A stretch of 17,568 bases of DNA from NCBI GenBank assembly GCA_046726415.1, contig JBKPAK010000094.1, positions 1 to 17,568 on the forward strand. The letters run 5' to 3'. The position numbers and the translations under genes were made by a program. Under the pieces are notes generated by a model. It ran no database searches. It saw only the letters and a list, made by a program, of their open reading frames with translations, and was not told the origin of the DNA. The DNA comes from Candidatus Methylomirabilota bacterium. Its GTDB lineage: Bacteria; Methylomirabilota; Methylomirabilia; Rokubacteriales; CSP1-6. Below, piece after piece: positions 1-4,387 of this stretch. Numbering within the stretch: position 1 is the stretch's first letter; every line of letters begins with the position of its first letter.

Positions 1-912
1 AGCAGAGCCCCGTATTCCCCCGGGTATGACCTGGCGTCGGCGCCCGTTGTCAGGCCTCCCCAACCTCCCGCGGAATCGAGGAGCCCCCCGGCTCCGCCGG
101 GGCGCGACGAGCGTCGGGGGGCTTGGGGGGCCCTTTCGAGGCCCCCCATCTTACTCGACGTGCGGGATCTCAACGTCCCGGCGGCCCGAGGCCACCTGGG
201 GTTGCAGGCCTGCTCTGTCCGTGTGGCGCCTGGGGAGGTCGTCGGCGTGGCCGGGGTCGCCGGCAACGGACAGCGGGAGCTGGCCGATGCCCTGGTAGGC
301 CTGCGGGTACCGGCACACGGCGCCATCATGCTCGATGGCCGCGACGTGACGAAGGTCGGAGTCCGCGAGCGCCTCCAGGCGGGTTTGGTCTACATCGCGG
401 AGGACCGGATCCAGGACGGGCTCCTGCCAGGTCTCTCGGTGGCCGAGAATTTCATGCTGGGTCTGCACGCCTTCGGGTTGGCCGGGCGGGTGGCCTTCAA
501 TCGCGCGCGGGCCCGGGCGCTGACGCGCGAGGCGATCGACGAGTACGCCATCCGCGCGCCCAGCGAGGAGGCGCGCGCGATCGATCTGTCGGGCGGCAAC
601 ATCCAGAAGGTGCTGGTGGCGCGGGCCATGACTCAGGCGCGCCTCGCCGGCGGGCGGATCCTCGTCGCTCTCAATCCGACGCGTGGGCTCGATGTCCGCG
701 CCACGGAGTTCGTGCGCCGCCGCTGCATCGACTTCGCCCGGGCCGGTGGTGGCGTGCTGCTCGTCTCCGAGGATCTCGATGAGCTGCGCCAGCTCTGCGA
801 CCGGATCGCCGTGATGTTCCGCGGCGCCATCGTCGCCGACCGCGCGCGAGGCCACTTCGATCCCTACGCCATCGGGCGCCTCATGGCCGGCATGGACAGT
901 TCCTCCCCATGA
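1..912 (+). CDS. Nucleoside/sugar (CUT2-type) ABC transporter ATP-binding protein, C-terminal half; 5' partial (frame open from base 1)
   Basis: Second-NBD motifs of two-domain CUT2 ATPases: degenerate Walker A GVAGNGQRE, YIAEDR, signature LSGGNIQK, NPTRGLD, VSEDLDE. No stop in frame 1 between 1 and the track start at 160, so the GTG at 160 is probably internal. Stop TGA 910-912. Confidence 0.9.
   Translation, partial: SRAPYSPGYDLASAPVVRPPQPPAESRSPPAPPGRDERRGAWGALSRPPILLDVRDLNVPAARGHLGLQACSVRVAPGEVVGVAGVAGNGQRELADALVGLRVPAHGAIMLDGRDVTKVGVRERLQAGLVYIAEDRIQDGLLPGLSVAENFMLGLHAFGLAGRVAFNRARARALTREAIDEYAIRAPSEEARAIDLSGGNIQKVLVARAMTQARLAGGRILVALNPTRGLDVRATEFVRRRCIDFARAGGGVLLVSEDLDELRQLCDRIAVMFRGAIVADRARGHFDPYAIGRLMAGMDSSSP
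30..150. repeat. Multi-hairpin palindromic element (REP/MITE/RPE-like) inside the ATPase inter-domain linker; left boundary uncertain
   Basis: Three stem-loops: 30-54 (CCTGGCGTCGG/CCGTTGTCAGG, wobbles and one mismatch), 86-102 (perfect CCCCGGC-TCC-GCCGGGG), 124-148 (TGGGGGG-C-CCT-TTCG-AGG-CCCCCCA). Core 75-113 shares two exact blocks with 11739-11778. Confidence 0.65.
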
Positions 913-1979
913 CGGCGGAGACGCGATCGCTAGCGACCGAGTCGGCGGCTCCGCCCGTCCGGTCAGGGGTCGTCGCCGAGGGCCTCGCCTACCTCGTCGC
1001 GGTCGGGGTGGGGGCGGCGGTCAGCGCGCTGTTCATCCTCGCCATGCGCGGGGACGTGATCGTCGCGTTCCGGACGATCATACTCAGCTCGCTCGGCAGC
1101 GTGGGCGGCGTGGCCCAGACGCTCAACAAGGTCTCGCCCCTGCTCCTGGGCAGCGTGGCGGTCATGGTTGCCCGGCGCGGCGGCTTCTTCAACATCGGGG
1201 TGGATGGACAGATCTACGGAGGCGCCATCGCCGCCACCGGGCTTGCCTTCGCCGTCGGCGCCGGGCCCGCGGTCGTGATGCCCGCGCTCGTGCTCACCGC
1301 GGGCTGTGTGGGCGGGGCGTTCTTCGGCGCCATCCCGGGCCTGCTCAGAGCGCGTTGGGGAGTCAACGAGATCTTCGTCACCGTGATGCTGAACTTCGTG
1401 GCGTACTACTTGACCGAGTACATCGCCACCGGCCCCTGGAACGACCCCATCACCGGCGAGGCCATCACGCGCATGATTCCCGAGACGGCAACGCTTCCCA
1501 TGCTGCTGCGCACGGCCGGCGCGCACTCCGGCATCCTCGTGGCTCTGGTCGCCGCCGCGTGCGCCTCGCTGCTCCTCACGCGCAGCGTGCTCGGCTACGA
1601 GATCCGCGCCGCCGGCGACAACCCGCGGGCCGCAACCATCGGCGGGATTCGCCTCGGCCGCATCGCGCTGGTGACGCTCGCCCTCAGCGGCGCCCTGGCC
1701 GGGCTCGCTGGCGCCATCGAGGTGGCCGGTTATCATCACCGCCTCATCCTCGGGCTCACTCCGGGGTACGGCGCCATGGCCATCCTCATCGCGGTGCTGG
1801 GCCGAATGAATCCCCTGGGCGTCGGCATCGCCTCCGTCCTCGTGGCCATCCTGATGGTGGGATCCGATTCGCTGCAGCGCAGCGTGGGGCTCCCGGCCAG
1901 CGCCGGCTTCGTCTTCCAGGCCATCGTCGTCCTCTGCGTGCTCCTCGTAGAGGCACGCGCGGCCCGCAGACGCGGATGA
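909..1979 (+). CDS. Nucleoside/sugar ABC transporter permease (BPD_transp_2 type)
   Basis: Hydrophobic 356 aa; FNIGVDGQ, GVNEIFVTVMLN, GYEIRAAGDNPRAA, SGALAGLAG motifs; ATGA overlaps with both neighbours. Confidence 0.92.
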   Translation: MTAETRSLATESAAPPVRSGVVAEGLAYLVAVGVGAAVSALFILAMRGDVIVAFRTIILSSLGSVGGVAQTLNKVSPLLLGSVAVMVARRGGFFNIGVDGQIYGGAIAATGLAFAVGAGPAVVMPALVLTAGCVGGAFFGAIPGLLRARWGVNEIFVTVMLNFVAYYLTEYIATGPWNDPITGEAITRMIPETATLPMLLRTAGAHSGILVALVAAACASLLLTRSVLGYEIRAAGDNPRAATIGGIRLGRIALVTLALSGALAGLAGAIEVAGYHHRLILGLTPGYGAMAILIAVLGRMNPLGVGIASVLVAILMVGSDSLQRSVGLPASAGFVFQAIVVLCVLLVEARAARRRG

Positions 1980-4387
1980 GCACGCGCGCGATCGGAAGTC
2001 GCGTCCCGCGTAACGAGGATCCGCGCCTGCTGCGCGGGTTGGGCTGCTTCGTGGACGACGTGAACCCCGCCGGCGTGCTACACGCGGCCTCCTTGCGCAG
2101 CCCGCACGCGCACGCCCGGATCATCAGCATCGACACCGCCCGGGCGCGCCATCTCCCCGGCGTCCACCTCGTCCTGACCGCCAAGGATCTCGGCGAGCAG
2201 AACCAGCCAGGCCCTCTCCTCATTCCCCACCCCGCGCTCACGCAGCCCCGCACGCAGCGCCCGCTGGCCGCGGGCGAGGTGCGCTTTGTGGGTGAGACGG
2301 TCGCCTTCGTCGTGGCGGACAGCCGCTATCTGGCCGAGGACGCGGCAGGGCTCATCGAGGTGGCGTACGAGCCACTGCCGGCCGTCACCGACCTCGAGAC
2401 GGCCCTCGCCGAGGGAGCAGCGCGCGTCCACGCCGACGTCCCCGCCAATCGAGCCGCCCGCTTTCCGCAGACGGCGGGCGATCTCGACGGTGCCTTCCGC
2501 CGCGCGGCGCACATCTTCCGCGAGCGGCTCGTCATCGAGCGCAGCTGTGGCAGCCCCATCGAGGCACGCGGCGTGGTGGCCGAGCACGATCGACGTACTG
2601 GCGTACTCCGGGTGTGGACCTCGACCCAGGCGCCCCTGCCCATCAAGAACGGCCTGGCCAGGATGCTCGGTCTGGCGGAGTTCGCGGTGGAGGTGATCGC
2701 GCCCGACATCGGGGGCGGCTTCGGCACCAAGATCATGCTCTTCTATCCGGAGGAGATCCTCGTGCCTCGGGCTGCGCTCCGGCTCGGGCGACCCGTCAAG
2801 TGGACGGAAGATCGGCGCGAGCATCTCATCGCGGCCAACCAGGAACGGGGCCAGGTCCATCATGTCGAAGTGGCGGTGGACGCCGACGGGCGACTCCTGG
2901 GACTGCGCGACCACTTCGTCCACGACGCTGGCGCCTACACGCCGTACGGCATCGTGGTGCCGATCATTACCGCCACCCAGCTTCCCGGGCCCTATCGCCT
3001 GCGCAACTACCAGGTCGAGTTCGAGGTGGCCTACACCAACAAGGTGGCGGTGAGCCCGTACCGCGGAGCGGGGCGGCCGCACGGCGCCTTCGTCATGGAG
3101 CGCATGATCGGTCGCATCGCGCGGGAGCTGGGACTCGAGCCGGCCGAAGTGCGCCGGCGCAACTTCATCCAGCCTGACGAGTTCCCGTGGGACGTGGGGC
3201 TCACCTTCCAGGACGGCGGCCCCACGCGCTATGACAGCGGCAGCTATCCGGCCGGGCTGGACATGGCTCTCGAAATGATCGGCGCGCGCGAGTTTCGAGC
3301 GCAACAGGTGGATGCGCGCAGGCAGGGGCGCTACATCGGACTCGGGCTCGGCTGTTACGTCGAGGGCACCGGCATCGGCCCCTACGAGGGAGCGCACGTG
3401 CGCGTGGAGCCGAGCGGCAAGATCTTCGTGGCCACCGGGCTCAGCACGCAGGGCCAGGGCCACCCGACGACCTTCGCCCAGATCACGGCCGACGCTCTGG
3501 GATGCGATCCCTCCGAGGTGACGGTCGTCACCGGCGACACGCGCCAGGTCAACTGGGGCGCCGGCACCTACGCGAGCCGCGGCCTGGTGACGAGCGGCAG
3601 CGCCATTCACGCGGCGGCGGTGAAGGTGCGGGACAAGGTACTGCGACTGGCCGCTGACCTCCTGGAGGCATCGCCCCATGATCTCGAGATCATCGAGGGC
3701 CGCGTGCGCGTGAAGGGCGCACCGGGCAAGGAGCTGACCCTCGGCGCCCTGGCCACGGTGTCCAACCCCATCCGCTACGCGTACGGCAAGGAGGCCTCCG
3801 AGGCCGCGCTGAGGCTCGTGAAGCCGCGCGAGGGTGCGGTGCTGGCGCCGGGCGAAGAGCCAGGGCTCGAGGCGTGGGGCTACTACGCCCCGCCTCACGC
3901 GACCTTCGCCAGCGGTTGTCACGCCGCCATCGTCGAGATCGACGTGGAGACCGGTGAGCTTCGCTTCTTGCGCTACGTGGTCCAGCACGACTGCGGGACG
4001 ATGGTGAATCCGACCATCGTGGAAGGACAGATCCGCGGTGGCGTGGCCCAGGGCATCGGGGGCGCGCTCTACGAGCGGCTCGTGTACGACGCGAGCGGAC
4101 AGCCCCTGACGGCCAGCTTCATGGACTTTCTGATGCCGACGGCTGTCGAGGTTCCCACCCTCGAGATCGGCCACATCGAGACGCCGTCGCCGCTGAATCC
4201 GCTCGGCATCAAGGGCGTGGGCGAGGCGGGCGCCATCCCCGGGCCGGCCCTGGTGGCCGAGGCGATCGACGATGCCCTCGCTCCCCTCGGCGTGCGCATT
4301 CGCGAGATGCCCGTCACCCCGAGCCGCCTCCGCGAGCTGATCCGCGCCGCCGGCGGGCCTGGGCGCTCCGCAGCACCGCCTGGATGA
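1976..4387 (+). CDS. Xanthine dehydrogenase/CO dehydrogenase family molybdopterin-binding large subunit (CoxL form II-like), 803 aa
   Basis: True start ATG 1976 (MSTRAIGSRVPRNEDPRLLRG), overlapping the permease TGA; RSPHAHARI, GGGFGTK, active-site loop PYRGAGR, QGQGH, EGQIRGGVAQGIG, KGVGE. Confidence 0.93.
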   Translation: MSTRAIGSRVPRNEDPRLLRGLGCFVDDVNPAGVLHAASLRSPHAHARIISIDTARARHLPGVHLVLTAKDLGEQNQPGPLLIPHPALTQPRTQRPLAAGEVRFVGETVAFVVADSRYLAEDAAGLIEVAYEPLPAVTDLETALAEGAARVHADVPANRAARFPQTAGDLDGAFRRAAHIFRERLVIERSCGSPIEARGVVAEHDRRTGVLRVWTSTQAPLPIKNGLARMLGLAEFAVEVIAPDIGGGFGTKIMLFYPEEILVPRAALRLGRPVKWTEDRREHLIAANQERGQVHHVEVAVDADGRLLGLRDHFVHDAGAYTPYGIVVPIITATQLPGPYRLRNYQVEFEVAYTNKVAVSPYRGAGRPHGAFVMERMIGRIARELGLEPAEVRRRNFIQPDEFPWDVGLTFQDGGPTRYDSGSYPAGLDMALEMIGAREFRAQQVDARRQGRYIGLGLGCYVEGTGIGPYEGAHVRVEPSGKIFVATGLSTQGQGHPTTFAQITADALGCDPSEVTVVTGDTRQVNWGAGTYASRGLVTSGSAIHAAAVKVRDKVLRLAADLLEASPHDLEIIEGRVRVKGAPGKELTLGALATVSNPIRYAYGKEASEAALRLVKPREGAVLAPGEEPGLEAWGYYAPPHATFASGCHAAIVEIDVETGELRFLRYVVQHDCGTMVNPTIVEGQIRGGVAQGIGGALYERLVYDASGQPLTASFMDFLMPTAVEVPTLEIGHIETPSPLNPLGIKGVGEAGAIPGPALVAEAIDDALAPLGVRIREMPVTPSRLRELIRAAGGPGRSAAPPG

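What the first reader, a model, noticed from the sequence alone, without database searches (positions are those of the whole stretch)
1..150. Multi-hairpin DNA element translated in frame inside an ABC ATPase linker
Seen: bases 1-150 form three GC-rich stem-loops (30-54, 76-110, 124-148), yet frame 1 stays open and runs into the second NBD (SRAPYSPGYDLASAPVVRPPQPPAESRSPPAPPGRDERRGAWGALSRPPI-LLDVRDL). The peptide is Pro/Arg-rich and uses codons uncommon in the rest of the gene (AGA, AGG, CAA, CCT, CTT). Known precedent: Rickettsia palindromic elements insert in frame into protein surface loops. Inference: a small non-autonomous mobile palindrome that colonises coding sequence at tolerant sites and donates new peptide. 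I cannot name a described family for it.
Basis: partly seen in the sequence, partly recalled or inferred. Interest (0 to 1): 0.75.

Follow-up and report, generated by a model that had tools for sequence, protein, structure and literature searches.

The report
Rokubacterial repeat element translated in ATPase linker
Bases 74-153 are one copy of a small two-hairpin DNA repeat scattered through the genomes of Rokubacteria soil bacteria, and here it sits in frame inside a transporter ATPase gene and lengthens a flexible linker, a known kind of event in a repeat family that seems undescribed.

Summary
Frame 1 is open from base 1 into the second nucleotide-binding domain (NBD2). Bases 1-153 lack coding periodicity and are rich in rare codons. 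Stem-loops exist at 83-105 and 124-148.

The discrete element is 74-153, not 1-150. It matches a repeat family (nhmmer E 1.9e-18) found in 123 loci, 117 of them from assemblies named Rokubacteria or Methylomirabilota. The top element matches are 88-95% identical, while flanking genes are 65-72% identical. Both hairpins show compensatory changes.

Family copies are normally intergenic and abut stop codons. About half form head-to-tail arrays. I found no terminal inverted repeats, no target-site duplication and no REP-type transposase in the DNA sampled.

In this ATPase the element is read in frame. Close relatives (97% and 85% identical) are full-length proteins with linkers of 117 and 53 residues, against 17-34 in 18 orthologues. 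The window starts inside that tandem array.

The same element, in the same frame, also sits in a loop of full-length ATP-dependent DNA ligases.

Verdict: a new member of a known kind (REP, RPE or MIRU-like repeats that occasionally become coding). How it spreads is not shown.

The parts
1..912 (+). 3' part of a fused two-domain ABC transporter ATPase ('simple sugar / general nucleoside' type): end of the inter-domain linker plus the second nucleotide-binding domain (NBD2). The gene start lies upstream of the window.
   Evidence: Open frame; Pfam ABC_tran; 73% identity to 500-520-aa fused ATPases; 97% identity to residues 299-601 of P0122.
1..72 (+). Tail of an upstream, degenerate repeat unit of the tandem array in the linker. 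Inferred, not shown at the DNA level.
   Evidence: In P0122 the linker has a 26-residue period (59 of 90 positions identical at offset 26, at most 18 of 87 at other offsets), and the window's first 24 codons fall in that register. At the DNA level there is no family match and no significant self-similarity (score 15 against a shuffle mean of 15.5).
74..153 (+). One canonical copy of the dispersed repeat of about 80 nt, read in frame as 26-27 codons of linker ending directly before the first strand of NBD2.
   Evidence: nhmmer E 1.9e-18 to model positions 2-81 of 83. 222 BLASTN matches in the loci, with starts clustered at 75-77 and ends at 146-151.
83..105 (+). Hairpin A of the element (arms 83-92 and 96-105, 3-nt loop).
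   Evidence: Conserved pairing with a C-G to G-C swap in 23 of 140 copies at the loop-closing pair.
124..148 (+). Hairpin B of the element (arms 124-132 and 140-148, 7-nt loop; a G-run paired with a C-run).
   Evidence: The G-run and C-run lengths co-vary across copies (84 copies with six and six, 40 with five and five, 13 unmatched).
909..1979 (+). ABC permease gene overlapping the ATPase stop codon.
   Evidence: Pfam BPD_transp_2, E 9.6e-38.

Best explanation
Bases 74-153 are a copy of a conserved two-hairpin repeat of about 80 nt that is dispersed through genomes of Candidatus Rokubacteria (Methylomirabilota).

The family normally sits between genes, right against stop codons, and often forms head-to-tail arrays. 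In this lineage a copy lies in the linker between the two nucleotide-binding domains of a fused ABC ATPase, in a frame without stops. It has been tandemly amplified in units of 26 codons.

It is translated as a Pro/Gly/Arg-rich, probably disordered spacer. The gene tolerates this because the linker is naturally variable in length. The window begins inside the array.

Shown: family membership, the element's limits, hairpin conservation, the usual intergenic niche, the open frame in full-length relatives, and the shorter linkers in orthologues.

Inferred: that the protein is made and works, that bases 1-72 are a decayed copy, and that the family spreads by some hairpin-dependent process followed by local slippage or unequal recombination.
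For: - Family. 117 of 123 loci come from assemblies named Rokubacteria, Rokuibacteriota or Methylomirabilota, and 31 assemblies are represented.
- Copy count. nhmmer gave 256 hits (E below 1e-3) in the window plus 1.17 Mb of loci, with exactly one in the window, at 74-153, E 1.9e-18.
- Sharp ends.
- Conservation. The top element matches are 88-95% identical, while genes in the same comparison are 65-72% identical.
- Hairpins. 93.5% of cells are paired, against 39.5-58.6% when partners are slid. 9 of 20 pairs show double changes. There are 83 double-change cells against 26.1 +/- 3.8 in shuffles, and 0 of 500 shuffles reach that.
- DNA, not protein, is what is conserved. P0245 reads the motif in all three frames, matching window frames 1, 2 and 3.
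- In frame in the ATPase. P0122 (601 aa, 97% identical) and P0123 (559 aa, 85% identical) run through both domains with linkers of 117 and 53 residues, against 17-34 in 18 orthologues.
- Period of 26 residues.
- The P0122 linker 233-345 is modelled with pLDDT 25-34 and no secondary structure, while the domain cores reach 75-94.
- Second host. Full-length DNA ligases of 542-574 aa carry the same peptide in the same frame in a loop that is 13-19 residues in 65 of 70 homologues.
- Usual niche. The stop codon of the convergent gene lies within -4 to +5 nt of the element's 3' end in 56 of 73 cases. Same-strand upstream genes stop 0-29 nt before the element's start in 43 of 44 cases.
- Arrays. 119 of 247 hits are head-to-tail.
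Against: - The window itself does not show the upstream half of the gene. Continuity rests on relatives, not on this contig.
- No expression data exist, so translation is not shown.
- The family consensus carries TGA and TAA flanking the core in the very frame used here. The usual copy would therefore close a reading frame, and this one differs at both ends.
- Bases 1-72 give no DNA-level match to the family and no significant self-alignment.
- The structure model is only moderately confident overall (mean pLDDT 60, alignment of 11 sequences).
- Mobility has no direct support. There is no target-site duplication (at best 7 of 72 isolated copies against 1.8 expected), no terminal inverted repeats (12 of 25), and no REP-type transposase in the loci (best E 0.32).
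- No filled-versus-empty site pair was recovered.
Confidence: 0.8

Rival explanations
1. The gene is split or dead. The element is really an intergenic spacer between two half-ATPase genes, or it marks a pseudogene, and the open frame is a by-product of high G+C content.
For: The family is overwhelmingly intergenic and abuts stop codons. All six frames of the core are open in 123-133 of 136 copies, so openness is cheap. Two intergenic copies, in L035 and L083, are also read through without a stop. The window lacks the upstream half.
Against: Three versions with different array lengths all keep NBD2 in frame: the window, P0122 and P0123. The array period is exactly 26 codons. NBD2 is well conserved (73% to orthologues, motifs intact). 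The only nearby start codons (TTG 123, GTG 160) lie inside the element or would cut into the first strand of the domain. All 120 listed homologues in the near-length search that are full-length are fused.
Confidence: 0.1
2. The family is not mobile at all. It is a selected cis-acting RNA or DNA signal (an mRNA 3'-end stabiliser, a terminator without a U-tail, or a protein-binding site) that spreads by recombination. The copy in the ATPase acts at the nucleic-acid level, for example by pausing or attenuating between the two domains, and the peptide is incidental.
For: Copies sit at gene 3' ends within a few bases of stop codons. Both hairpins show compensatory change. Conservation is much higher than in neighbouring genes. 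No target-site duplication, terminal inverted repeats or transposase were found. REPs are also thought to work as RNA elements (PMC3733652, abstract and section 15 read).
Against: Copies occur in both orientations relative to the adjacent gene. There is no Rfam match (best 14.8 bits against a gathering score of 34). Hundreds of near-identical copies with sharp ends across 31 assemblies are easier to explain by copying than by convergence. This rival concerns the family's nature and does not conflict with the in-frame reading.
Confidence: 0.2
3. It is an ordinary in-gene minisatellite that arose from the native linker and is unrelated to any dispersed element.
For: A 26-residue tandem period with copy-number differences between close relatives. 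Part of the last unit aligns loosely with native linkers of orthologues.
Against: 222 BLASTN matches outside this gene, and nhmmer E 1.9e-18. The same sequence is read in other frames elsewhere.
Confidence: 0.03
4. It is an assembly artefact: a chimeric join or collapse at a high-copy repeat.
For: The window starts, and the fragment P0243 ends, inside the array. That is what assemblers do at repeats.
Against: Both sides of the repeat belong to the same gene family in the right order. Separately recorded proteins (P0122, P0123, P0243) agree. A break at a repeat affects copy number, not presence.
Confidence: 0.03

Closest known systems
REP elements, GTAG- and CGTC-tagged palindromic repeats (Di Nocera et al. 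2013, PMC3733652; abstract and sections 6 and 15 read)
   Same: Both are high-copy, GC-rich palindromes. Both lie mostly between convergent or co-directional genes, within about 20 bp of ORF 3' ends, with ends that can overlap stop codons. Occasional copies lie inside genes and encode 20-80 residues, including in a DNA ligase. On the reverse strand a CGTC motif lies directly 5' of hairpin A here.
   Different: The unit here is about 80 nt with two different hairpins, not one 20-40 bp palindrome. The stems lack the A/T first positions described for CGTC families. Neighbours are only head-to-tail (119 of 247 hits, with 0 adjacent opposite pairs), whereas the CGTC REPs described there are mostly head-to-head dimers. 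No RAYT was found.
Rickettsia palindromic elements (RPE), as described in PMC3733652 section 15 and PMC3184786 passages
   Same: A palindromic repeat inserted in frame in conserved proteins, adding a peptide segment at a tolerated site.
   Different: No sequence relation was tested, because I held no RPE sequence. Here in-frame copies are the exception: none truly within a gene among 210 sampled genomic copies. The host phylum differs, and tandem amplification inside the gene is prominent.
Mycobacterial interspersed repetitive units (MIRU); description taken from passages of Delihas 2011, PMC3184786
   Same: Units of 40-100 bp, GC-rich internal inverted repeats, about tens of loci per genome, head-to-tail arrays with variable copy number, and ends that overlap the neighbouring genes' codons.
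   Different: MIRUs are reported with short direct repeats at filled sites and imperfect terminal inverted repeats, and neither was found here. The copies here occur in both orientations relative to the flanking gene. No sequence comparison was made.
[quoted passage not shown]
   Same: Small, non-coding, multi-copy, with sharp ends.
   Different: The defining terminal inverted repeats and target-site duplications were tested and not found.

Membership tests
REP (GTAG/CGTC-tagged) | Single 20-40 bp imperfect palindrome with an unpaired GTAG or CGTC tag at one end | tested here: inconclusive
   CGTC lies next to hairpin A on the reverse strand (alignment), but my search pattern required that motif. 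A sub-group has another sequence there. The unit is about 80 nt with two hairpins.
REP (GTAG/CGTC-tagged) | Mostly inverted (head-to-head or tail-to-tail) dimers | tested here: not met
   0 adjacent opposite-orientation pairs; 119 of 247 hits are in head-to-tail arrays.
REP (GTAG/CGTC-tagged) | Location close to ORF 3' ends, between convergent or co-directional genes | tested here: met
   The stop codon lies within -4 to +5 nt of the element's 3' end in 56 of 73 convergent cases. It lies 0-29 nt before the 5' end in 43 of 44 same-strand cases.
REP (GTAG/CGTC-tagged) | Associated RAYT (Y1 transposase) gene flanked by the repeats | tested here: inconclusive
   tblastn of E. coli RayT against 1.17 Mb of loci gave a best E of 0.32. 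The loci are a small, truncated sample of the genomes.
MITE | Terminal inverted repeats | tested here: not met
   Best match is 12 of 25 between the 5' end and the reverse complement of the 3' end of the family consensus.
MITE | Target-site duplication flanking each copy | tested here: not met
   Over all boundary offsets and k = 3-6, at best 7 of 72 isolated copies show a flanking direct repeat, against 1.8 expected.
RPE (Rickettsia palindromic elements) | Sequence membership in an RPE family of Rickettsia | not tested
The host here is Rokubacteria.
RPE (Rickettsia palindromic elements) | In-frame insertion inside conserved protein genes without breaking them | tested here: met
   ATPase linker and DNA ligase loop. 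This is rare relative to intergenic copies.
MIRU-like minisatellite | Head-to-tail arrays of 40-100 bp units with copy number varying between strains | tested here: met
   Periods are mostly 76-102 nt, plus a 43-56 nt class. Linkers are 117 against 53 residues in relatives that are 97% and 85% identical to the window. The ligase loop is 13-65 residues.
MIRU-like minisatellite | Same orientation as the flanking operon genes | tested here: not met
   Both orientations are common: 73 cases with a convergent gene at the 3' end and 44 with a same-strand gene at the 5' end.
Rfam RNA families | Match to a curated covariance model | tested here: not met
   Best match is 14.8 bits against a gathering score of 34, E 4.

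The most novel reading that the evidence does not exclude
The family is a distinct class of hairpin-dependent selfish or domesticated repeat, specific to Methylomirabilota, that fits neither REP/RAYT nor MITE rules. It has no terminal inverted repeats and no target duplication. Its arrays are strictly head-to-tail, and it docks within a few bases of stop codons. Its in-frame arrays act as evolvable length modules for disordered protein linkers, changing copy number between strains in an ABC ATPase and a DNA ligase.
Probability: 0.15. Interest if true: 0.7.

Novelty: new member of a known kind. Interest (0 to 1): 0.5.

Why it matters
- It gives a concrete, checkable case of non-coding repeat DNA becoming protein sequence in an uncultured soil phylum, and in two unrelated essential-type enzymes.
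- It defines a repeat family with sharp ends, two co-varying hairpins and a stop-codon-abutting niche, and I could find no paper describing it. My searches cover only the open-access library.
- The family breaks assemblies: this window starts, and fragment P0243 ends, inside an array.
- The family generates spurious gene calls such as P0242 and P0245, which look like ORFs read across repeat arrays.
- Knowing the family should therefore improve annotation of Rokubacteria genomes.

Tried and rejected
- Tandem Repeats Finder found nothing in 1-150.
- A local alignment of 1-60 against 61-160 scored no better than shuffles (15 against a mean of 15.5; 293 of 500 shuffles as high). The tandem structure therefore cannot be shown from the window alone.
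- The whole-region fold of 1-160 is not unusual.
- A hairpin-motif search in the window found only the copy itself.
- Rfam gave only noise.
- An empty-site search, joining the two flanks of each copy and running BLASTN against all loci, returned only matches caused by neighbouring array copies or overlapping loci. No filled-versus-empty pair was found.
- A motif-based survey of linker length over 220 homologues was unreliable, because outliers arose from missed motifs. I replaced it with 20 checked sequences.
- tblastn of P0122 against the loci found only 28-35% identical paralogues and no orthologous locus.
- E. coli RayT against the loci found nothing.
- The cluster-member look-up could not be made, so copy-number variation within the 90% clusters stayed unchecked.
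- An early idea that the last unit is simply the native linker was dropped.

Full report
**What is in the window.**
Residues 69-212 match Pfam ABC_tran (E 7.5e-13). A BPD_transp_2 permease follows at 909-1979. The rest of the window holds ordinary metabolic, regulatory and transport genes.

Bases 1-150 do not look like normal coding DNA of this 71% G+C genome:
- GC by codon position is 0.72/0.76/0.76, against 0.78/0.48/0.87 in 151-912.
- 15 of 51 codons in 1-153 are rare in the neighbouring genes, 29% against 5.1%.

The three stem-loops fold when taken alone:
- 30-54: z -2.2.
- 76-110: z -1.3.
- 124-148: z -3.0.

The inverted repeats lie at 83-92/96-105 and 124-132/140-148. The region 1-160 as a whole folds no better than shuffled sequence.

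**The gene and its linker.**
The closest proteins of normal length are fused two-domain ATPases of 500-520 residues. They are about 73% identical over NBD2 and do not cover the first 30-50 residues of the window's peptide.

A search among longer proteins found two closer relatives:
- P0122: 601 aa, 97% identical, 100% of the query covered.
- P0123: 559 aa, 85% identical.

Both run without interruption from the first nucleotide-binding domain through the linker into the second. Measured between the same two flanking motifs, the linker is 117 residues in P0122 and 53 in P0123. It is 17-34 residues in 18 more distant orthologues.

The P0122 linker is periodic. At an offset of 26 residues, 59 of 90 positions are identical. 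At every other offset from 20 to 34, at most 18 of 87 are identical. The window's first 24 codons fall in the register of one such unit and the next 26-27 codons form the last unit, so the window begins inside a tandem array.

An AlphaFold2 model of P0122 has mean pLDDT 60 and rests on an 11-sequence alignment, so it is only moderately reliable. It gives the linker 233-345 a pLDDT of 25-34 with no secondary structure, while the domain cores reach 75-94.

**The repeated thing is DNA, not protein.**
A scan of 1.84 billion representative proteins with the 50-residue peptide found four hits.
- P0243 is an N-terminal fragment of the same ATPase that ends inside the array.
- P0242, P0244 and P0245 carry several tandem copies of the same motif in other contexts.
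- P0245 reads the motif in three different frames, and these match the window's frames 1, 2 and 3. Only a conserved nucleotide sequence can produce that.

**A dispersed family.**
- 117 of the 123 loci come from assemblies named Candidatus Rokubacteria, Rokuibacteriota, Methylomirabilota or Methylomirabilia.
- Six loci come from three assemblies with other names.
- 31 assemblies are represented in all, several with 11-17 separate loci.

A profile built from 131 distinct copies found 256 hits (E below 1e-3) in the window plus 1.17 Mb of loci. The window has exactly one hit, at 74-153, E 1.9e-18, aligned to model positions 2-81 of 83. Bases 1-80 alone give no hit, even with all filters off.

BLASTN of window 1-200 gave 222 matches. 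Starts cluster at 75-77 (111 of 222) and ends at 146-151 (151 of 222). The top element matches are 88-95% identical to the window copy, while the best gene matches in the same comparison are 65-72% identical. The window carries no second copy.

**Structure of the family.**
In an alignment of 140 distinct copies, the two hairpins are kept:
- 93.5% of cells are paired, against 39.5-58.6% when the partner is slid by one to three columns.
- 9 of 20 pairs show changes on both sides.
- There are 83 such cells against 26.1 +/- 3.8 in shuffles, with 0 of 500 shuffles as high.

The clearest cases are:
- A C-G to G-C swap at the loop-closing pair of hairpin A, in 23 copies.
- Matched lengths of the G-run and C-run of hairpin B: 84 copies with six and six, 40 with five and five, 13 unmatched.

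These copies are related, so the shuffle control overstates significance, but the slid control agrees.

**Where the family normally lives.**
Of 247 distinct copies, 210 had enough flanking DNA to judge by codon-position GC. Only two had a stop-free frame with a coding signal on both sides. On inspection both lie between genes rather than inside one:
- L035: between a permease and an ATPase.
- L083: between hrcA and grpE.
In each case no in-frame stop intervenes.

The commonest setting is a convergent gene whose stop codon lies within -4 to +5 nt of the element's 3' end (56 of 73 cases). Same-strand upstream genes stop 0-29 nt before the element's start in 43 of 44 cases.

About half the hits (119 of 247) are in head-to-tail arrays. 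Periods are mostly 76-102 nt, with a shorter class of 43-56 nt. None is next to a copy in the opposite orientation.

Tests for the marks of known mobile elements were negative:
- Among 72 isolated full-length copies there is no consistent flanking direct repeat (best 7 against 1.8 expected).
- The ends are not inverted repeats (12 of 25).
- E. coli RayT found nothing in the loci (best E 0.32). This is a weak negative, given how little of each genome was sampled.
- Rfam has no match.

**The copy in the ATPase.**
It lies in the family's plus orientation, in the frame where the family consensus is bracketed by TGA and TAA. The window copy has other codons at both places, so the frame runs on.

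Its 3' end abuts the codons of the first conserved strand of NBD2. The very rare TTA codon at 151-153 belongs to the element's end.

All six frames of the core are open in 123-133 of 136 copies. An open frame therefore needs no special adaptation. What argues for real translation is that three versions with different array lengths all keep NBD2 in frame, in exact 26-codon steps. In addition, no plausible independent start exists for NBD2.

**A second host gene.**
P0244 begins like the N-terminus of ATP-dependent DNA ligases: six PDB ligase chains match, with a best E of 0.0011. A search among longer proteins found full-length ligases with all three Pfam ligase domains:
- Four are longer: 573 aa (P0246), 574 aa (P0250), 546 aa (P0248) and 542 aa (P0270).
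- Most of the other full-length ligases are 518-530 aa.

The extra residues sit in one loop and carry the element's peptide in the same frame as in the ATPase. They match element copies in the loci by tblastn at 46-83% identity.

The loop is 13-19 residues in 65 of 70 homologues and 30-65 in five. P0249, which is 97% identical to P0246, has a 16-residue loop.

**Comparison with what is known.**
In Di Nocera et al. 2013 (PMC3733652) I read the abstract and sections 6 and 15. REPs are described there as follows:
- They lie mainly between convergent and co-directional genes, within about 20 bp of ORF 3' ends.
- Their ends sometimes supply stop codons.
- Intragenic copies encode 20-82 residues in several species, including in a DNA ligase. 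The Rickettsia RPEs are named as the richest case.

In Delihas 2011 (PMC3184786) I read passages only. MIRUs are described as 40-100 bp interspersed units with G-C-rich internal repeats and ends that overlap adjacent genes. In-frame fusion of small repeats is listed as a known phenomenon.

The present family shares the niche, the hairpins and the occasional coding copies. It differs in four ways:
- It has two hairpins in an 80-nt unit.
- Its arrays are only head-to-tail.
- It lacks terminal inverted repeats and target-site duplication.
- Its host is a different phylum.

Four literature searches combining Rokubacteria or Methylomirabil- terms with repeat terms found no paper on such an element. 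These searches cover only the open-access library. Supplements were not consulted.

**Verdict.**
The limits, the number of hairpins and the claimed habit of colonising genes need correcting, and mobility remains an inference. It is a new member of a known kind.

**Left unchecked.**
The nucleotide sequence of the arrays in the relatives and the upstream half of this gene therefore stayed unchecked.

Noticed in passing
L035:9978-10048 (- strand): An element copy lies between an ABC permease and the next ABC ATPase gene with no in-frame stop, so the permease frame runs through the element into the ATPase start. The element's 3' end supplies an ATG there.
   Followed up: partly
L083:278-357: An element copy (reverse orientation relative to the genes) lies between hrcA and grpE, and again no in-frame stop separates the two reading frames.
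   Followed up: partly
proteins P0246, P0250, P0248, P0270 (no DNA available): Full-length ATP-dependent DNA ligases carry one or more element-derived segments in a loop after about residue 65. A 97%-identical ligase (P0249) has only a 16-residue loop, suggesting recent gain or loss.
   Followed up: partly
proteins P0242 and P0245: Predicted proteins that look like ORFs called across repeat arrays. P0245 changes frame between units, and the C-terminal half of P0242 looks to me like an antisense read of a GC-rich gene. They are probably spurious gene calls.
   Followed up: no
L001, L023, L121 (Acidoferrum-named MAG); L003, L116 (uncultured bacterium); L007 (Microtetraspora-named MAG): Six loci with the element come from assemblies not named Rokubacteria or Methylomirabilota. 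This could be binning contamination or transfer, and was not examined.
   Followed up: no
L031:10001-10397; L049:9980-10485; L018: Long head-to-tail arrays (5 copies at a 91-nt period; 5-7 copies at an 87-nt period; 9 hits in L018). Some arrays repeat only the first half of the unit, with periods of 43-56 nt.
   Followed up: partly
window 909-4387: Only one permease gene follows the ATPase. It is followed directly (overlapping stop and start at 1976-1979) by a xanthine-dehydrogenase-type molybdopterin subunit (Pfam Ald_Xan_dh_C, MoCoBD_1, MoCoBD_2).
   Followed up: no
window 74-153: The window copy has a run of six C at 84-89 where the family consensus has a mixed sequence. This gives it an extra, copy-specific long pairing with the G-run at 116-121 in the minimum-energy fold.
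   Followed up: no
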